From: a virus
Virus record (IMG/VR): IMGVR_UViG_3300037307_000721
Length of the DNA stretch: 64,000 nucleotides
Direction: 5' to 3' (one strand)
Shown: piece by piece, positions 35,993 to 57,053 of the stretch
Position numbering within the stretch: position 1 is the stretch's first letter
How the letters are laid out: each line of letters starts with the position of its first letter
Translations under genes and position numbers: made by a program
Notes under the pieces: model-generated
Seen by the model: only the letters and a program-made list of their open reading frames with translations
The model's database searches: none
Told to the model about the DNA's origin: nothing

Positions 35993-36075
35993 TGGGGCGG
36001 GGAGGACTCGAACACTCCGACCCTCCCGGGGCGCCAAGGCGCCGGCGGGATGCTCTACCGCTGAGCTACCGCCCC
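35993..36075 (-). ncRNA. tRNA-like RNA with anticodon loop replaced by GC hairpin
   Basis: GGGGCGG/CCGCCCC acceptor; D arm; TCCCG-[CCGGCGCCTTGGCGCCC]-CGGGA; TTCGA T loop. Confidence 0.6.
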
Positions 36076-45886: not shown

Positions 45887-46840
45887 TCAGTCGTCCTCCC
45901 ACTCGTTTGGCTCGTCGCCTTCGACGTGCCGCCAGACCACCAGCCGGCCCTCGCGGATGGCCTGTCGGATGACGCCCGGGAGCGTCTCCAGGTTGAACTC
46001 GGTGTCGTACTTCCTGCCTGTCCGGTGGTCGGTCAGGCAGACACCCGCGTCGATGATGTTGAGCGTGCGCCGGTCGCAGGTGCACTCGAGCCGCCTGTTC
46101 TCGAACCGGTACTGCACGATCATCTCGCCGTGGTTGAAGGCCGGCCGCACCGCGATGAGCTCGGCGCCGCCAGCCCGAAGCGCGGCTGCCGCGGCCGCGC
46201 TGAAGTCCGTCTGGGCCAGCAGTCGGCGCCCATGCCCCGTGCCGATGAGCCGCAGGGCCTGCTCGCGAAGCGCCTCTTCCTGGCGCCGGCGCTCGGTCTC
46301 CGCGCGCCGACGCTCGACCTCGAGACGCTGTCGGCTCATGAAGCGAAAGGCCAGGTCCAGGGCTGGCGTCACGTCCTTGACGCGGGCGACAGAGTCCTGG
46401 CGGTCCACGAAGGCCCTCCGCACGGCCACCTCCGCCCCACCTTCGAAGAGCGGCATGGCGAAGATGGCTCGGTGTTCCTCGTCGAATGCGACCAGCACCG
46501 GGATGAAGAGGTCCAGACCGCGATCGACGAGGAACACCGGCACGGTCTGGTCCACGAGCTTGTCCGGGTCGGGGTCGACACGGGCCTTCTCGGGGATGAA
46601 GCGGTCGCCGGCGAGGTAGCCTCTCGCCGTGACCTTGTTGTCCTGGAAGTCCGCCGGCCGGTCCGCCTCGCCCTTGAGCGTGGCGACTCGGCCTGCGAGC
46701 TCGAAGAGGTACCATCCGAACTCGCGCGGGAGGGGGTTGGTTGCTCTCCAGGTACGACCGTCGCGGTGGACCTTCCGTCCGCCGAGCCACGGCAGCACCT
46801 GGCTTTCCGTGGTCGGCTGAAGAAGGTCTTGCCAGGTCAT
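45887..46840 (-). CDS. conserved hypothetical protein, candidate E2-like Cys carrier
   Basis: 317 aa; central coiled coil; C-terminal IIDAGVCL...DT.F.LE.LP motif; operon context only. Confidence 0.5.
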   Translation of the reverse strand: MTWQDLLQPTTESQVLPWLGGRKVHRDGRTWRATNPLPREFGWYLFELAGRVATLKGEADRPADFQDNKVTARGYLAGDRFIPEKARVDPDPDKLVDQTVPVFLVDRGLDLFIPVLVAFDEEHRAIFAMPLFEGGAEVAVRRAFVDRQDSVARVKDVTPALDLAFRFMSRQRLEVERRRAETERRRQEEALREQALRLIGTGHGRRLLAQTDFSAAAAAALRAGGAELIAVRPAFNHGEMIVQYRFENRRLECTCDRRTLNIIDAGVCLTDHRTGRKYDTEFNLETLPGVIRQAIREGRLVVWRHVEGDEPNEWEDD

Positions 46841-46853
46841 GCGCTGGTCTCCT

Positions 46854-48767
46854 CTATGCCCAGGCGGGCTTCTGAAGAAGAGGCGTCTTCAAGATCTGCT
46901 CGATGAGCGAGACCCGCGTCGGCACCGGAGCTGCCGGGCCGGTGACCTTGCGAACCGGCGTGGCAGTGATCAGGTTCCTCAGCGTGCGACTCACCGCGTA
47001 CGGATCGTTGAAGATCTCCTCGTCGATCGGGAAGCAGGGCACGTTGAGACGCCCCGCCGCCTGGTGGATGAGCGAGTCGGGTCTGCCCGGCGCGCCCATC
47101 GAGTCGATGTGAAGCAGGCCGAAAGCAACCGGCTCGACGCCGGACTGCTGGATGGCCCGCACCAGGTAGTCGATCCCCGGGCCGAGGCCCGAAGAGTCCT
47201 GCTCGTCGCCGACGAAGAAGAGGAGCGCGTCCTCGGTCGCCGCCGGCTTGTGCCGCTCGAGCAAGCAGCGGGCTCCCGCCGCGTAGCTCGTCCCGCCGCC
47301 CGCGTTGTGACCCCTGAAGGCCTGGGCCACACCCACCGCCGAGGGGACCTTGATCTCGACTTCGCGCCCCTCGGTGTTGAAGACGCACACGTGCAACCGG
47401 TCGAGCGGGAAGGCCGAGACGAGCCGAGCGAGACACTCCTTCGCCCGCTCGATGGCCCCTTGCATGGACCCGCTCTTGTCGACGATGACGTAGATCCGGA
47501 AGTCCTTCGCGACCTCCGCCACCGCCTTCTGCGCGGCCTGGTCGGCCGCCTGCTCGAGCTGCTCCTTGACCGCGACGTCCTTGACGTTGCGGGCGATGTT
47601 CGCCGCCCGCTGGTTCTCGGCCTTCTCCGTCGCCGCCTTCCACCGCTTGGCGATCTGCTCCACCTGGAGAAGCCCGAGCTCCTCGAGCGTCGGGGTCAGG
47701 ATGATGAGGTCAGCGTCGCTGAGCCCACCGCCCTCGATCGCCGCCGCCATGATGGCCGGCGTCAGCCCGGGGTCCGTCGGGAGCATGCCCACGATGCGCT
47801 TCCACGACAGCCTGCCCACCACGATGCGCTCGCAGATCTGCTTCTCGCTCAGGCCCTTCCAGCTCTCGGCCGCGGCGACTTCCTTGCCGATGGCCAGCCC
47901 TCGCCGCCCGTCCTTGGCCTGCACCTGCTTCCAGCGCAGGAGCTCAAAGAAGCGCTCGGCCTGCGGCTTGTAGCCCACCTTGCGAGCGAGCTGCATGACC
48001 GCCTGGCGAAAGCCCTCCTTGAGCACCTTCTCGAGCAGCTTGATGTTCGCCTCGTGATGCGCGAGCCACTTCTCCACGGCCTTGTAGTACCGGCCGGTCG
48101 GAGCGGTCCGCGCCGACTGCCCGAAGCCAAGCTTCCGGTTGATCTCGACGACCGCCGGGAGCTCGAGCACCTCGCCAACCCGGAGCAGGAGCTTCGGGTT
48201 GAACGTCCCGCCCTTCTTCCTGGACCGGATGAGGCACATGGCCTCGCCCACCGCGCGGTAGTCGTCGTCGAGCAAGGTGGCGTCGCCATCCTTGATCGGT
48301 TCCCCGTAGCGGTTCTGCACCAGGAGGAACGCGGCGAGCAGCACCTTGAGGTCCCGGTTCTCCTCGTGCTCGAAGGCGTAGGACGCCCACTTCGCGGCGA
48401 ACTCGTTGTCGATCCGCCAGACGTCGGCGATCTGCGAGTAGAGATGCGCCACGACCTCGGGGAAGAGGCCCGGCGCACGGAACTCCGCGACCACCCGACC
48501 GGCCTCGATGACCCGAGCGGAGCCCGGCTCGCCGATTCCGATGCGGGTCTTGTGCTGCTTCTTGCCGACCTTCTTGACGGTGTAGACGACCTTCTGCTCG
48601 CCCTCCTTGACCCAGGTCGCCTGCTCCCAGCGCTTGCCCCAGGGCTGACGCTGGTCGTCGAAGACGACGCCGGGCCGGTTGTGGACGGCGTGGTCGGTGA
48701 AACGGGTGATGGTCTGGATGATTCGCTCGGCGGGGCCGAGCGCCTCGAGGCGCTCTTGCGCGTTCAT
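46854..48767 (-). CDS. TROVE/Ro60-like helical protein with C-terminal vWA domain
   Basis: Long helical N-terminal region; IVDKSGSM MIDAS, GGTS, FVGDE; preceded by tRNA-like RNAs. Confidence 0.75.
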   Translation of the reverse strand: MNAQERLEALGPAERIIQTITRFTDHAVHNRPGVVFDDQRQPWGKRWEQATWVKEGEQKVVYTVKKVGKKQHKTRIGIGEPGSARVIEAGRVVAEFRAPGLFPEVVAHLYSQIADVWRIDNEFAAKWASYAFEHEENRDLKVLLAAFLLVQNRYGEPIKDGDATLLDDDYRAVGEAMCLIRSRKKGGTFNPKLLLRVGEVLELPAVVEINRKLGFGQSARTAPTGRYYKAVEKWLAHHEANIKLLEKVLKEGFRQAVMQLARKVGYKPQAERFFELLRWKQVQAKDGRRGLAIGKEVAAAESWKGLSEKQICERIVVGRLSWKRIVGMLPTDPGLTPAIMAAAIEGGGLSDADLIILTPTLEELGLLQVEQIAKRWKAATEKAENQRAANIARNVKDVAVKEQLEQAADQAAQKAVAEVAKDFRIYVIVDKSGSMQGAIERAKECLARLVSAFPLDRLHVCVFNTEGREVEIKVPSAVGVAQAFRGHNAGGGTSYAAGARCLLERHKPAATEDALLFFVGDEQDSSGLGPGIDYLVRAIQQSGVEPVAFGLLHIDSMGAPGRPDSLIHQAAGRLNVPCFPIDEEIFNDPYAVSRTLRNLITATPVRKVTGPAAPVPTRVSLIEQILKTPLLQKPAWA

Positions 48768-48981: not shown

Positions 48982-49098
48982 TGGAGGAGCAGGGAGTCGA
49001 ACCCTGGCTAACGTGTAGGCTTGGACTTGGGGAGGCCGGTCACCCGACCCCGAGTCGCCAAGCTGTGACTCGTATCCGCAACCCGTGCGGACTCCTCC
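48982..49098 (-). ncRNA. tRNA/Y-RNA-like chimera 4
   Basis: GGAGGAG/CTCCTCC acceptor; T arm CAGGG-TTCGACT-CCCTG; insert ends CCAAGC-CTACACGT. Confidence 0.65.
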
Positions 49099-49103
49099 AG
49101 TAG

Positions 49104-49248
49104 CGGGGCGCCCAGGATTCGAACCTGGATGACTTGTAGGCTGAAGCTGTTGGGCCTGAGCAGCAAGCTGCCCGCGCTCGAGACCTCCAGCGGGAGTGTG
49201 TTGTGCTGGTCCCAAAAACCAGTGCCTTTTCCGTTAGGCTAGCGCCCC
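49104..49248 (-). ncRNA. tRNA/Y-RNA-like chimera 3 (Gln-TTG core, about 77-nt variable-loop insert)
   Basis: Full cloverleaf plus insert GCTGGAG...CTTCAGC-CTACAAGTCAT. Confidence 0.75.
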
Positions 49249-49288
49249 GATGACGCTTCGTTCTCACTCCTCTTACCAACAACTGCAG

Positions 49289-49419
49289 AGCCGGGGGACG
49301 GAGTCGAACCGTCTGACTTGTAGGCTTGAGCTCGATGGGTCCGACTGCTCGGACCCGAGACGCTCAGGCTGGGATGGACTGGTTGGAAGCCAGTTGCCCT
49401 GCCGTTGGGCGTCCCCGGC
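49289..49419 (-). ncRNA. tRNA/Y-RNA-like chimera 2 (Gly-TCC core, about 65-nt insert)
   Basis: Cloverleaf, U73; insert GCCTGAGC...GCTCAAGC-CTACAAGTCA. Confidence 0.75.
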
Positions 49420-49424
49420 GATAT

Positions 49425-49586
49425 TCAATTTTTGCCCCGAGGGGCTTCTTGCTTTCCTTCCCTGGCCCGCTGAGCCGCCTTCCTGATTCGTTCGGCGTAC
49501 TCGCGAGCCCACTCCCCGAGCGTTTGTGTGCGGCCCGTCTTCGGGTCCGTCAGCAGCTTGTTCTCGGGCAGCTCGTCATCTTCCAT
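49425..49586 (-). CDS. 53-aa hypothetical protein
   Basis: MEDDELPENKLLTDPKTGRTQTLGEWAREY... Confidence 0.4.
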   Translation of the reverse strand: MEDDELPENKLLTDPKTGRTQTLGEWAREYAERIRKAAQRAREGKQEAPRGKN

Positions 49587-49590
49587 CTTC

Positions 49591-49730
49591 GGTGCCGGCG
49601 CGAGGATTCGAACCTCGATTCACTTGTAGGCTTGAGCTGTGAAGCTCTTGCGAGCTCGAGTACCCCAAGCGGGTTGTGGTTGTTCTTGGTTTAGGAGTCC
49701 AAGTGCCTTTTCCAATTCGGCCACGCCGGC
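49591..49730 (-). ncRNA. tRNA/Y-RNA-like chimera 1 (9-nt anticodon loop, about 70-nt insert)
   Basis: GCCGGCG/CGCCGGC acceptor; insert GCTTGGG...CTCAAGC-CTACAAGTG. Confidence 0.75.
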
Positions 49731-50914: not shown

Positions 50915-51224
50915 AGAAGGTGATGTTGCCGTCGGTGACGAAGCCGTGCCAGCAACCATGATTCAGAATCGACGGGCTGATCGTCAGGTCTTCGAAGCTC
51001 GTGCCCTTGACCGCCCAACGAGGCGGTGGGTTCCACGAGGCGGGAGCGCCCTTGCCTTCGAACCAGATGAGGATCGAGTGCGTTCCGACCGGCCCGCCGT
51101 TCGATCGAAAGCAGTGCGGACAGAGGAACATGATGCCCTGCGCTTCGGCGAGCGTCTCGACGCTCGTCATCTTTCGATCGTCGAGGGTCTTCATGAAGGA
51201 TGGCTCGAGGTCGGTCAGGCGCAT
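50907..51224 (-). CDS. DUF6527-like protein
   Basis: FLCPHC...W...G...LTISPSI...CWHGFVTDG.I. Confidence 0.65.
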   Translation of the reverse strand: MRLTDLEPSFMKTLDDRKMTSVETLAEAQGIMFLCPHCFRSNGGPVGTHSILIWFEGKGAPASWNPPPRWAVKGTSFEDLTISPSILNHGCWHGFVTDGNITFCE

Positions 51225-51238
51225 CGCGAACCTCCTGT

Positions 51239-51280
51239 TGGAGTGCCCAGCGGGAGTCGAACCCGCTACTCAACCTTGGC
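51239..51280 (-). pseudogene. orphan 3' half of tRNA-Gly(GCC)
   Basis: GCCAA-GGTTG-AGTA-GCGGG-TTCGACT-CCCGC-TGGGCAC-T-CCA. Confidence 0.65.
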
Positions 51281-51294
51281 GCCTGCACAGCCGA

Positions 51295-51573
51295 TCATTT
51301 CTGCGATAGGAGTCGCCTCGCCAGGCGAGACTTCAACTCCCATCTCTTGCAGAACCGCCGAGCCCCAACCTTGTCCACGAGTCGACTTTTGCGACTCGTC
51401 GTGTAGTACTCGTGGACAACTCCAGCGGTCACACCATGATACTCCATGATCCAGGAGATACGGTACACCTCTCCTGGGACGATCTCCTCCACCTTGTGCC
51501 CACCACCAGCTCTCCAGCATTGATGACTGACACTACCTTGGTATGGGATGTCGTCAGGCCACACATCACTCAT
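51295..51573 (-). CDS. hypothetical protein
   Basis: 92 aa between tRNA-Gly and the orphan Gly half. Confidence 0.45.
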   Translation of the reverse strand: MSDVWPDDIPYQGSVSHQCWRAGGGHKVEEIVPGEVYRISWIMEYHGVTAGVVHEYYTTSRKSRLVDKVGARRFCKRWELKSRLARRLLSQK

Positions 51574-52424: not shown

Positions 52425-52510
52425 TGGCGGAAGACCGGGGAGTTGAACCCCGCTGGCCTCGCGACCGCACCGCGCTTCCAACGCGGCTGTGCACCTCGCA
52501 CTCGTCTTCC
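52425..52510 (-). tRNA. tRNA-Ser(GGA)
   Basis: Long variable arm, G73, CCA. Confidence 0.85.
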
Positions 52511-52520
52511 AAGATCGAAA

Positions 52521-52655
52521 CCGCGCCCGAGATGTCAGACCTGGATCTTGCTCGATTTTCCGTCGAGTGCCTTCCCGTTAGGCTAGCTCCCCGTAGAGTG
52601 GGGAGCCCAGGGGTCGAACCTGGATGACTTGTCGGGTCTATCTGGTTGGACGCGG
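52521..52655 (-). ncRNA. circularly permuted tRNA-like RNA (YrlA-type topology)
   Basis: Terminal stem CCGCGTCC/GGGCGCGG; order T arm, looped acceptor stem, D arm, anticodon-like arm. Confidence 0.75.
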
Positions 52656-52661
52656 AATCGG

Positions 52662-52745
52662 CGGAGAGCCGGGGAGTCGAACCCCGCTGGCCTTTCGACC
52701 GCACCCGGGTAGCAACCGGGCCGCGCGCCATCGCACACGCTCTCC
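52662..52745 (-). tRNA. tRNA-Ser(GCT)
   Basis: Long variable arm, G73. Confidence 0.85.
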
Positions 52746-56966: not shown

Positions 56967-57053
56967 TGGGCGGTGAAGGAGTTGAACCTCTCGCCCGTTG
57001 GGACCCGGTTTACAGCCGGGCGCTGGCACCGGCCAGCCTTATGCACACCGCCC
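56967..57053 (-). tRNA. tRNA-Tyr(GTA), atypical D arm
   Basis: CT-GTA-AA; variable arm; D region GCTGGC-CGGT-GCCAGC. Confidence 0.8.

What the first reader, a model, noticed from the sequence alone, without database searches (positions are those of the whole stretch)
52521..52655. Circularly permuted twin of the chimeric RNAs
Seen: 5' CCGCGTCC..AGAT-AGACC-CGACAAGTCAT-[T arm CCAGG TTCGACC CCTGG]-GCTCCCC-actctac-GGGGAGC-TA-[D arm GCCT AACGGGA AGGC]-A-CTCGA-CGGAAAA-TCGAG-CAAGATCCA-GGTCT-GAC-ATCT-CGGGCGCGG 3'. Its core is nearly identical to chimera 3 (49104), but the acceptor stem is closed by a loop and the insert helix is opened as the terminal stem. Established: this T-acceptor-D order matches YrlA, and permuted tRNA genes mature through circular intermediates in some algae and archaea. 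Inference: one genome holds both permutations, a snapshot of the tRNA-to-Y-RNA transition. The GGUCUGA/UAGACC helix resembles a Ro-binding helix.
Basis: partly seen in the sequence, partly recalled or inferred. Interest (0 to 1): 0.88.

Follow-up and report, generated by a model that had tools for sequence, protein, structure and literature searches.

The report
Inside-out tRNA-shaped phage Y-like RNA
A large uncultured phage encodes a small RNA shaped like a tRNA whose acceptor end is sealed and whose ends lie in an extra arm; it is conserved in many giant phages and is probably a new kind of Y RNA working with a Ro60-like protein.

Summary
Fifteen distinct homologues from other giant-phage contigs keep every helix: 94% of cells paired, and 29 of 37 pairs show compensatory changes.

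It is a circular permutation of the three or four tRNA-like 'chimeras' at 48982-49730. Both forms share one tRNA-like core and one extra two-part helix with a conserved internal loop, which sits in the variable-loop position. In the chimeras that helix is capped and the acceptor end is free. Here the acceptor is closed and the helix carries the RNA ends.

It is not a one-genome snapshot. Both topologies co-occur, usually abutting, in at least six other phage records. No BHB motif is present, so the algal/archaeal maturation route does not apply.

The Rfam YrlA model does not match, and the YrlA 5' motif is absent. The architecture is nevertheless YrlA-like, and a helical-repeat+vWA protein (46854-48767) whose best structural matches are Ro60 proteins travels with it.

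Best reading, about 50%: a Y-RNA-like partner of that protein. Binding and transcription are untested.

Earlier notes of this scan report similar acceptor-closed tRNA mimics beside Ro60-like genes in other phages, and one describes the chimeras of this genome.

The parts
52648..52655 (-). Terminal helix (helix b), 5' strand, CCGCGUCC. It starts 4 nt after the 3' end of tRNA-Ser(GCU).
   Evidence: All 9 model pairs of this helix covary and 97.6% of cells pair.
52640..52647 (-). 5' side of the conserved internal loop, AACCAGAU. The family consensus starts A-N-C.
   Evidence: Alignments.
52635..52639 (-). Helix a, 5' strand, AGACC.
   Evidence: In helix 2, 5 of 7 pairs show compensatory changes.
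52624..52634 (-). Linker CGACAAGUCAU, the 3' part of the variable region. It is shared with the chimeras (C-U-ACAAGUCAU). Its last base, U, can form the Levitt pair with A15.
52607..52623 (-). T arm CCAGG-UUCGACC-CCUGG, with a canonical G53, U54, U55, C56, R57, A58 and C61.
   Evidence: Helix 3 has 98.6% of cells paired.
52586..52606 (-). Closed acceptor hairpin GCUCCCC-ACUCUAC-GGGGAGC: 7 bp with a 7-nt loop.
   Evidence: The stem has 7 pairs in 8 of 10 homologues and 6 pairs in the other 2. All 5 modelled pairs of helix 4 covary.
52568..52585 (-). U8-A9, the D arm GCCU-AACGGGA-AGGC (with A14, A15, G18, G19), and A26.
52551..52567 (-). Anticodon-like arm CUCGA-CGGAAAA-UCGAG. The loop has 7 nt but G at position 33, so decoding is unlikely.
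   Evidence: Loop sequences differ in every homologue.
52542..52550 (-). Linker CAAGAUCCA, the 5' part of the variable region.
52537..52541 (-). Helix a, 3' strand, GGUCU.
52529..52536 (-). 3' side of the internal loop, GACAUCUC. It ends in the family-invariant (A/U)CUC.
52521..52528 (-). Terminal helix (helix b), 3' strand, GGGCGCGG. It ends 10 nt before the 5' end of tRNA-Ser(GGA).
49104..49248 (-). Chimera 3, the non-permuted sibling: a tRNA-like gene with a ~75-nt variable-region insert that carries the same helix module.
   Evidence: Rfam tRNA, 45.6 bits, with the insert in the variable region. R2 scores 135 bits.
49289..49419 (-). Chimera 2.
49593..49730 (-). Chimera 1.
48982..49098 (-). 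A degenerate fourth chimera-like copy.
   Evidence: R2 scores 36.7 bits; fold.
46854..48767 (-). Candidate protein partner, 637 aa: an N-terminal helical-repeat domain plus a C-terminal vWA domain, Ro60-like by fold.
   Evidence: Pfam finds vWA only. Full-length Foldseek puts Ro60 chains on top. The exhaustive structural search of the N-terminal domain puts the three Ro60 representatives at ranks 1-3 of 48,161. The language-model neighbours are TROVE clusters.

Best explanation
The element is a gene for a stable, non-decoding, tRNA-shaped small RNA of about 135-150 nt.

Release (inferred). It is transcribed as part of the minus-strand tRNA array. It is probably set free when RNase P and the 3'-end enzymes process the two tRNA-Ser genes that flank it by 4 and 10 nt.

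Fold (shown by covariation and conserved tertiary-contact bases). The core is an L-shaped tRNA mimic with a T arm, a D arm, an anticodon-like arm and a 7-bp acceptor stem sealed by a loop. From the variable-loop position a 'handle' emerges: helix a, a conserved asymmetric internal loop (A-N-C opposite (A/U)CUC), and helix b. In this form helix b is made by the RNA's own 5' and 3' ends.

Function (inferred). The handle is the docking site for the phage's Ro60-like ring protein (46854-48767), as the stem-bulge-stem of Y RNAs is for Ro60. The tRNA-like core then tethers or decoys a tRNA-recognising factor.

Relation to the chimeras. The sibling chimeras carry the same handle capped by a loop, with a free acceptor end that could be charged. 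This permuted form has its termini in the handle, as every known Y RNA does, and its acceptor end is protected.
For: Structure and conservation:
- The fold is reproduced without constraints.
- On 15 distinct homologues 94.3% of cells pair, 29 of 37 pairs show compensatory changes, and the slid controls collapse.
- U8, A14, G18G19, the UUCGA T loop and G53:C61 are all present.
- The base before the T stem co-varies with position 15 (A15:U48 or G15:C48) in 7 of 10 homologues (read).

Same handle in both topologies:
- The chimeras align as tRNA with the insert in the variable region.
- Both forms share the linker ACAAGU and the CUCG loop motif.
- A handle-only hairpin without any tRNA core lies 330 nt from the permuted copy in one relative (z -4.1). 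This recalls YrlB beside YrlA.

Protein link:
- Full-length Foldseek is topped by Ro60 chains, E 2e-8 to 2e-6.
- The N-terminal domain alone, in an exhaustive structural search, ranks D. radiodurans Rsr (Z 8.3), Thermus phage Ro60 (Z 7.8) and Xenopus Ro (Z 6.6) at 1-3 of 48,161 chains.
- The language-model neighbours of residues 1-415 are TROVE clusters.
- Three of the four records found by RNA pattern alone also encode this protein, one of them a 5.5-kb contig.
- The permuted RNA lies on the same strand, 2-20 kb from the gene, in all records where both were placed.

Precedent:
- YrlA has the same T / closed acceptor / D order and is encoded near Ro60 in bacteria and phages (PMC4201824).
- Thermus phage Ro60 binds stem-bulge-stem Y-like RNAs (PMC12135203).
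- A Ro60-fold protein of phage Bas63 lies next to its tRNA genes and counters the Ppl defence system (10.1101/2024.10.10.617714).
Against: - There is no transcript, end-mapping or binding datum of any kind.
- Pfam TROVE does not match the protein or any of 30 homologues. Foldseek on the N-terminal domain alone finds nothing significant. Z of about 8 is within the range that helical repeats can reach by chance (note).
- The published Ro60-binding motif (GNCGAAN0-1G / CGAA on the 5' strand) is absent here. The conserved CUCG lies on the strand of opposite polarity relative to the tRNA-like domain.
- The Rfam YrlA model gives no hit.
- Linkage to the gene is loose (3.75 kb here, up to 20 kb elsewhere) and could simply reflect that both lie in the tRNA-array region of one phage clade.
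- The alignment used for pair counts was fitted to the model, which favours the structure.
Confidence: 0.5

Rival explanations
1. Two-piece tRNA. Host RNase P cuts at G+1 inside the acceptor loop, the 3' side is trimmed and CCA is added. The two halves stay together through the acceptor stem and the handle helices. The product is a split tRNA-like molecule that can be charged, and it may enter translation or carry an amino acid. This could also happen in addition to the Ro60-like partnership.
For: - The acceptor stem keeps the 7-bp length (6-7 pairs formed) in all 10 homologues examined, stacked on a 5-bp T stem. This is the geometry RNase P measures.
- The loop starts with A, like a discriminator base, in 5 of 10 homologues, and reads ACCA in one.
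- M. smegmatis YrlA, the only YrlA with a 7-bp acceptor, is cut by RNase P in vitro and is cleaved and CCA-tailed in vivo (PMC4201824).
- Two-piece permuted tmRNAs set a bacterial precedent (PMC3985003).
Against: - Several homologues close the stem with 4-6-nt loops: GAAA, ACAUC, CGCAAG. These leave almost no leader or trailer.
- The anticodon loops are not conserved. This copy has G33, and one relative has a 6-nt loop.
- The phage already encodes standard tRNAs for the same anticodons.
Confidence: 0.13
2. A tRNA decoy or sponge that does not depend on the Ro60-like protein. The sealed tRNA mimic soaks up a host tRNA-targeting defence nuclease or a tRNA-processing or modification enzyme. The handle serves only for stability or for another protein.
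For: - The elbow nucleotides of the tRNA shape are strongly kept while the anticodon loop is free to vary.
- The element sits in a 47-tRNA array, a kind of locus linked to evasion of tRNA-cleaving defences (PMC11555353, listed).
- The closed acceptor would resist 3' exonucleases.
Against: - This does not explain why the handle's internal loop is conserved in both topologies and in a handle-only hairpin.
- It does not explain the co-occurrence with the Ro60-like gene.
Confidence: 0.15
3. A genuine circularly permuted tRNA gene, matured as in red and green algae and Thermofilum. The leader and trailer form a bulge-helix-bulge motif, are cut and ligated into a circle, and the circle is then opened at the acceptor loop.
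For: - The gene order matches: 3' half, intervening loop, 5' half.
- In this copy a 4-bp helix is flanked by bulges on opposite strands.
Against: - The bulges lie 5' of the central-helix strands, the mirror image of a BHB motif (reasoned from the position-37/38 geometry).
- The AGAU/AUCU helix is absent from the homologues.
- Related phages carry tmRNA, so the hosts are bacteria, which have no splicing endonuclease.
- No RtcB is encoded in the 82-kb record.
- Permuted tRNA genes are known only from six algae and one archaeon (PMC3978253).
Confidence: 0.02
4. Not a functional gene: either a rearrangement relic, or an artefact of reading across the junction of two tandem tRNA-like genes.
For: - Tandem chimeras do give spurious 'permuted' covariance-model hits across their junctions (L082, resolved).
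- The YrlA model also hits ordinary tRNA junctions.
- The Felix O1 hit was such an artefact.
Against: - Here the flanks are two ordinary tRNA-Ser genes, not chimera halves.
- The two acceptor strands are fully complementary.
- The closed acceptor and the terminal helix both covary across 15 homologues.
Confidence: 0.04

Closest known systems
YrlA, the tRNA-like bacterial and mycobacteriophage Y RNA bound by Rsr/Ro60 (Rfam RF02553; Chen et al. 2014, PMC4201824; Wang et al. 2018, 10.1101/312249)
   Same: - The RNA ends form a stem.
- The tRNA-like domain is read in the order T arm, closed acceptor-like stem-loop, D arm.
- The tRNA tertiary-contact bases are kept.
- It is encoded in the same region as a Ro60-type gene.
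- The 7-bp acceptor matches M. smegmatis YrlA.
   Different: - The RF02553 model gives no match.
- There is no GNCGAAN0-1G motif.
- A complete anticodon-like arm is retained, and the handle leaves from the variable-loop position instead of replacing the anticodon arm.
- The handle has its own conserved internal loop, A-N-C opposite (A/U)CUC-G-R.
- It coexists with non-permuted siblings.
- The partner protein has no Pfam TROVE signal.
Thermus phage phiLo Ro60 with Yrl1/Yrl2 (PMC12135203; PDB 9KOP, 9L5Y)
   Same: - A phage-encoded Ro60-fold protein with stem-bulge-stem RNAs encoded nearby.
- 9L5Y and 9KOP are among the best structural matches of the window's protein.
   Different: - The Yrl RNAs have a CGAA bulge and no tRNA-like core described in that paper.
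- Binding was shown there by experiment; none exists here.
Circularly permuted tRNA genes of Cyanidioschyzon, green algae and Thermofilum pendens (Soma 2014 review, PMC3978253)
   Same: The 3' half lies upstream of the 5' half, with a short intervening sequence in an acceptor loop.
   Different: - No BHB motif at the termini.
- A bacterial-virus context.
- The break is in a long variable-arm insert, not in a standard tRNA position.
- The anticodon loop is not functional-looking.
- Most likely it is not matured into a normal tRNA.
One-piece and two-piece (circularly permuted) tmRNA (review PMC3985003)
   Same: - A tRNA-like RNA family that exists in both gene topologies.
- In the permuted form the acceptor region is transcribed as a loop.
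   Different: - No tag reading frame or pseudoknots.
- ARAGORN finds no tmRNA in the window.
- Here both topologies occur in the same genome.
- Cleavage of the loop has not been shown.
Bas63 gp130, a Ro60-fold anti-Ppl protein of a Felix O1-type phage (preprint 10.1101/2024.10.10.617714)
   Same: - A Ro60-fold phage protein encoded next to a tRNA gene block.
- The authors guess that some of those 'tRNAs' are Y RNAs.
   Different: - No detectable sequence similarity to the window's protein in cultured phages (tblastn).
- My model does not find the Felix O1 RNAs.
- No defence phenotype is known for this clade.

Membership tests
YrlA (Rfam RF02553) | The covariance model scores at or above the gathering cut-off of 69 bits. 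| tested here: not met
   There is no hit on 52521-52655 even at E<=10, either in a 9.5-kb scan or in the whole 82-kb record. The hits listed there fall on ordinary tRNA junctions.
YrlA (Rfam RF02553) | A tRNA-like domain in the order T arm, closed acceptor-like stem-loop, D arm, enclosed by a stem formed by the RNA ends. | tested here: met
YrlA (Rfam RF02553) | A 5'-strand Rsr-binding motif, GNCGAAN0-1G (Chen 2014), or CGAA in the bulge (phiLo Yrl). | tested here: not met
   The motif is absent from the 135 nt. The family conserves (A/U)CUCG-R on the 3' strand instead. A few relatives read CUCGAACG there.
YrlA (Rfam RF02553) | The stem takes the place of the anticodon arm. | tested here: not met
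   A separate 5-bp/7-nt anticodon-like arm is kept, and the handle leaves from the variable region.
YrlA (Rfam RF02553) | Encoded next to a Ro60/TROVE gene, and bound by that protein. | tested here: inconclusive
   A Ro60-like fold protein lies 3.75 kb away on the same strand, but Pfam TROVE does not match it. Binding cannot be tested with these tools.
Circularly permuted tRNA genes (algae, Thermofilum) | The 3' half lies upstream of the 5' half, joined by an intervening sequence at the acceptor. | tested here: met
Circularly permuted tRNA genes (algae, Thermofilum) | The leader and trailer form a bulge-helix-bulge motif for the splicing endonuclease. | tested here: not met
   The bulges lie on the mirror-image sides of a 4-bp helix that is not conserved in the homologues. 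This was read by hand against the 37/38 geometry.
Circularly permuted tRNA genes (algae, Thermofilum) | The product is a decoding tRNA: U33, purine 37, and an anticodon conserved in orthologues. | tested here: not met
   The loop here is CGGAAAA, with G33. The loops differ in all 10 homologues, and one has 6 nt.
tRNA (RF00005 / ARAGORN) | Recognised as a linear cloverleaf. | tested here: not met
   Neither ARAGORN nor RF00005 reports the interval. The non-permuted chimeras do score 43-47 bits.
tmRNA, including two-piece permuted forms | Detected by ARAGORN or RF00023; a tag reading frame is present. | tested here: not met
   No tmRNA is found in the window. At 135 nt the element has no room for a tag frame and pseudoknots.
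Ro60 / TROVE (for the 637-aa neighbour) | A match to Pfam PF05731. | tested here: not met
   No hit in the record at E<=1, nor in any of 30 homologues at E<=1.
Ro60 / TROVE (for the 637-aa neighbour) | A helical-repeat ring followed by a vWA domain. | tested here: inconclusive
   - The vWA domain is clear (Z about 15).
- The full-length search is topped by Ro60 chains, but with TM 0.19-0.25.
- For the N-terminal domain, Foldseek finds nothing.
- The exhaustive search puts the three Ro60 representatives at ranks 1-3, with Z 8.3, 7.8 and 6.6.
- TROVE clusters are the nearest by language-model features, at 0.77-0.79, which is lead level only.

The most novel reading that the evidence does not exclude
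The phage clade keeps one RNA in two circular permutations because each offers a different free end. The chimeras expose a chargeable CCA end with the Ro handle capped. [quoted passage not shown] That hybrid would be the first split tRNA-like molecule in a bacterial virus. It would tether a Ro60-like ring to the translation or tRNA-repair machinery.
Probability: 0.1. Interest if true: 0.85.

Novelty: new variant of a known kind. Interest (0 to 1): 0.68.

Why it matters
Y RNAs and Ro60 are conserved from bacteria to humans, yet how the tRNA-like part of bacterial Y RNAs arose, and what it does, remains open. This family gives a natural comparison. The same tRNA core and the same protein-type handle occur in both gene topologies, side by side, in many giant phages. 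The handle sits in the variable-loop position, which differs from its position in YrlA.

Two things follow:
- tRNA-to-Y-RNA conversion has happened more than one way.
- Matched natural constructs are available (free against sealed acceptor, capped against open handle, handle alone) for testing what Ro60-like proteins read and what the tRNA mimic recruits.

It also flags a protein family of more than 2,000 metagenomic members as a probable divergent Ro60 branch that sequence models miss. And it shows that RNA genes are hidden in the 'gaps' of phage tRNA arrays, for example the unannotated copy in GenBank KX853510.1.

Tried and rejected
- DNA pattern scans. ACAAGTNA...GGTTCGA found only unrelated low-GC tRNAs. 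CTTACAYGC...GGTTCGA was swamped by tRNA-Val(UAC) anticodon loops, although a few true members came with it. A third pattern was mostly chance but added two records.
- Similarity searches against GenBank phages. Megablast and blastn found nothing for the region, a single short hit for the element, and nothing for a relative's copy.
- PDB sequence and profile searches of the protein found only the vWA domain. Foldseek of the N-terminal domain alone found no significant match. The 'second look' VIA list was filled by vWA domains.
- No TROVE and no RtcB family match in the 82-kb record, which is only 55% complete.
- BHB / archaeal-type maturation was rejected on geometry and lack of conservation.
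- Phylogeny of the cores (87 columns) is unresolved. The permuted copies cluster more than chance (2 of 500 shuffles). A single origin is not rejected (p-AU 0.63) and is not shown either. The mosaic identity found suggests exchange between copies.
- The Felix O1 test of family identity gave a weak hit that is just two adjacent tRNAs. Whether the Felix O1-type RNAs noted earlier in this scan belong to the same family is therefore not settled here.
- No promoter-like site and no convincing terminator lie next to the element, which fits co-transcription with the array.
- Complex prediction was not used: it takes no RNA.

Full report
**Context.** The window is bases 13697-77696 of an 82.4-kb IMG/VR virus record, about 55% complete and about 65% G+C. 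It holds a portal gene, a protease-fusion gene and other phage genes. ARAGORN finds 47 tRNA genes, all on the minus strand. The finding lies in the 149-nt gap between tRNA-Ser(GCU) (52660-52745) and tRNA-Ser(GGA) (52425-52510).

**Observation.** The drawing has an 8-bp terminal helix, an internal loop and a 5-bp helix, followed by four hairpins in a row:
- a T arm;
- a 7-bp acceptor stem closed by ACUCUAC;
- a D arm;
- a 5-bp arm with a 7-nt loop.

The bases that build the tRNA elbow are all in place: U8, A14, A15, G18G19, G53, U54U55C56, A58 and C61. Neither ARAGORN nor any Rfam model reports the interval, not even at E<=10. That includes tRNA RF00005 and YrlA RF02553.

**Relation to the 'chimeras'.** With relaxed thresholds Rfam's tRNA model matches three genes, at 49104-49248, 49289-49419 and 49593-49730, with 43-47 bits. 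Two of them are aligned with a 65-75-nt insert between the anticodon stem and the T stem; the third (49593-49730) is placed by the model with a 73-nt insert inside the anticodon arm. A weaker fourth copy lies at 48982-49098.

The insert consists of:
- a C/A-rich linker;
- helix a;
- an internal loop that contains CUCG;
- helix b, capped by a loop;
- the return strand;
- an invariant linker, AGCCUACAAGU, that runs into the T stem.

The finding has the same parts in rotated order: helix b 5' strand, loop, helix a, linker CGACAAGUCAU, T arm, acceptor, D arm, anticodon arm, linker, helix a, loop ending CUC, helix b 3' strand.

Identity to chimera 3 splits by region:
- 33/38 on the T side;
- 25/28 for the acceptor 5' strand plus D arm, including one compensatory acceptor pair change;
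- 9/22 for the anticodon arm, which is unrelated. That arm instead resembles arms in relatives from other phages, including the odd G33 loop CGG(A/U)AAA.

**Is it a family?** The neighbouring 637-aa protein has more than 2,100 metagenomic homologues. Loci around its relatives in IMG/VR contained look-alikes of the element. A covariance model built from the window copy and two of these then found full-length permuted copies in further giant-phage records of 130-530 kb, several with two copies each.

On 15 distinct sequences:
- 94.3% of cells form standard pairs;
- 29 of 37 pairs show changes on both sides;
- the covariation score is 0.62, against 0.19 for shuffles and 0.08-0.13 for slid partners;
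- every pair of the terminal helix, and every modelled pair of the closed acceptor, covaries (for the 10-sequence set).

The alignment was fitted to the model, which leans towards the structure, but the slid controls share that bias. In the 10 copies examined the acceptor stem keeps 7 bp in 8 copies and 6 pairs in the other 2. The loops range from GAAA to a 24-nt loop with its own hairpin. The base just before the T stem co-varies with position 15 (A:U or G:C) in 7 of 10, as expected for the tRNA Levitt pair (read). The structured RNA is real beyond reasonable doubt.

**Both topologies are conserved together.** A second model built from the chimeras shows a chimera ending, often in an encoded CCA, 0-2 nt before the permuted copy. 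This holds in G001 (both copies), G002 (both copies), G008 and G010. Sometimes another chimera follows directly. In closer relatives (L082, L091) three chimeras sit immediately upstream of the protein gene, as they do in this window. One relative also has a handle-only hairpin in which 9 nt replace the tRNA core. It lies 330 nt from its permuted copy and folds with z -4.1.

This rules out a 'snapshot of a transition'. The two forms, and the bare handle, are a maintained set. A tree of the shared core (87 columns) is unresolved. A single origin of the permuted form is neither rejected (p-AU 0.63) nor shown.

**What is conserved in the handle.** The conserved features are:
- the closing pairs of helix b;
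- a 5' loop that starts A-N-C;
- a 3' loop that ends (A/U)CUC, followed by G-R;
- CAGGU at the start of helix a's 3' strand;
- the linker motifs, CUUACA(U/A/C)GCA in relatives and C-N-ACAAGUCA here.

The published Ro60 contact motifs, GNCGAAN0-1G in YrlA and CGAA in the phiLo Yrl RNAs, are not present in this copy. Some relatives read CUCGAACG, which is a resemblance only.

**The candidate partner.** Pfam sees only a vWA domain at residues ~420-550 of the 637-aa protein, and TROVE does not match. The structural and feature-based evidence is:
- An AlphaFold model from 30 homologues (pLDDT 79.6) has Ro60 chains as its best full-length Foldseek matches: phiLo 9KOP/9L5Y, Xenopus 1YVR, human 9NFA and Deinococcus 2NVO, at E 2e-8 to 8e-6. 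These rank ahead of vWA-only hits, but TM-scores are low.
- The N-terminal 415 residues modelled alone gave no significant Foldseek hit.
- In the exhaustive VIA search, however, the three Ro60 representatives are ranks 1, 2 and 3 of 48,161 chains, with Z 8.3, 7.8 and 6.6.
- The nearest named ESM-Atlas clusters by features are TROVE families, at 0.77-0.79, which is lead level only.

These are three weak lines that agree. I put about 75% on a divergent Ro60-like protein.

Of four records found through the RNA alone, three encode this protein. One of those is a 5.5-kb contig on which RNA and gene are 2.3 kb apart. In GenBank the only relative is Virus Rctr197k (KX853510.1). Its gene is an unnamed misc_feature, and an unannotated permuted core lies 9 kb away.

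**Mechanism.**
- Shown: the fold, its conservation, the shared handle, and the co-occurrence.
- Inferred: release from the polycistronic array transcript by processing of the abutting tRNAs (no promoter or terminator lies next to the element); binding of the handle by the Ro60-like protein; and use of the tRNA-like core as a tether or decoy.

Because the anticodon loops vary freely and this copy has G33, decoding is unlikely. The 7-bp acceptor stacked on the T stem makes RNase P cleavage plausible, as shown for M. smegmatis YrlA. The very short loops in some homologues argue that cleavage is not the general purpose.

The permuted-tRNA pathway of algae and archaea needs a BHB motif. Here the bulges lie on the mirror-image sides of a non-conserved 4-bp helix, and related phages carry tmRNA, so the hosts are bacterial.

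**Comparison and novelty.** The closest known kind is YrlA. The element works like it in architecture and probably in partnership. It fails three defining features: the model score, the 5' motif, and the stem taking the place of the anticodon arm. I therefore file it as a new variant of the Y-RNA/YrlA kind, not as a member.

I found no paper describing this RNA family. A preprint on the Felix O1-type phage Bas63 speculates that some tRNA genes next to its Ro60-fold gene are Y RNAs.

Earlier notes of this scan report the chimeras of this genome with the same Ro60-like reading, and similar acceptor-closed tRNA mimics in other phages. I re-derived the structural, covariation and protein evidence independently. 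My model does not reach the Felix O1 RNAs, so identity with those families is open.

Noticed in passing
L099:1082-1171 (-) = G003:C1:94543-94632: A handle-only hairpin. It has the terminal helix, the conserved internal loop, helix a and both linkers, but 9 nt stand in place of the whole tRNA-like core. It lies 330 nt from that phage's permuted copy and folds with z -4.1. It is reminiscent of YrlB beside YrlA.
   Followed up: partly
KX853510.1 175515-175605 (-) (L287:3516-3606): The GenBank record of Virus Rctr197k holds an unannotated permuted tRNA-like core (59 bits) with an extra hairpin in its 5' linker. It lies 9 kb from an unnamed misc_feature that is 50% identical to the window's Ro60-like protein.
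   Followed up: partly
window 56969-57052 (-): A class II tRNA with anticodon loop CUGUAAA, so probably tRNA-Tyr(GUA). ARAGORN missed it, and it shows up only as a sub-threshold tRNA-Sec-model hit (38 bits).
   Followed up: partly
window 35993-36075 (-): An 83-nt Rfam tRNA match (45 bits) that ARAGORN does not call. It has a long G+C-rich hairpin in place of a normal anticodon arm.
   Followed up: no
window 48982-49098 (-): A degenerate fourth chimera-like copy just upstream of the Ro60-like gene. The handle module is recognisable, but the D arm is not.
   Followed up: partly
L082:11487-11867 (+); L107:725-1124 (-): Related phages carry full-length tmRNA genes (101-111 bits) within the same tRNA-rich region. 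None was found in this window.
   Followed up: no
window 52551-52567 (-), and chimeras in G008, G003 and G001: The anticodon-like arm of the permuted copy, loop CGGAAAA with G33, is nearly the same as arms of chimeras in other phages (UUCGA-CGGUAAA-UCGAA). It differs from the arms of this genome's own chimeras. This suggests module exchange, or a conserved non-decoding role for that loop.
   Followed up: no
relatives' linkers, e.g. L110 and L138: The linker before the T stem reads CUUACAAGCAA or CUUACAUGCAUA in relatives. From memory it resembles the conserved 11-nt motif of Dictyostelium Class I RNAs, a link also raised in earlier notes of this scan. I did not test it.
   Followed up: no
window 45887-46840 (-): A 317-aa protein with no Pfam or PHROG match always follows the Ro60-like gene (310-326 aa in L082-L085 and in two other contigs). 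It is a second candidate component of the same system.
   Followed up: no
window 51205-51297 (-): A stretch with a canonical T arm (GCGGG-UUCGACU-CCCGC) but no recognisable rest of a tRNA. It gives weak YrlA-model and reverse-strand hits, and its fold is no better than shuffles (z 0.14).
   Followed up: partly
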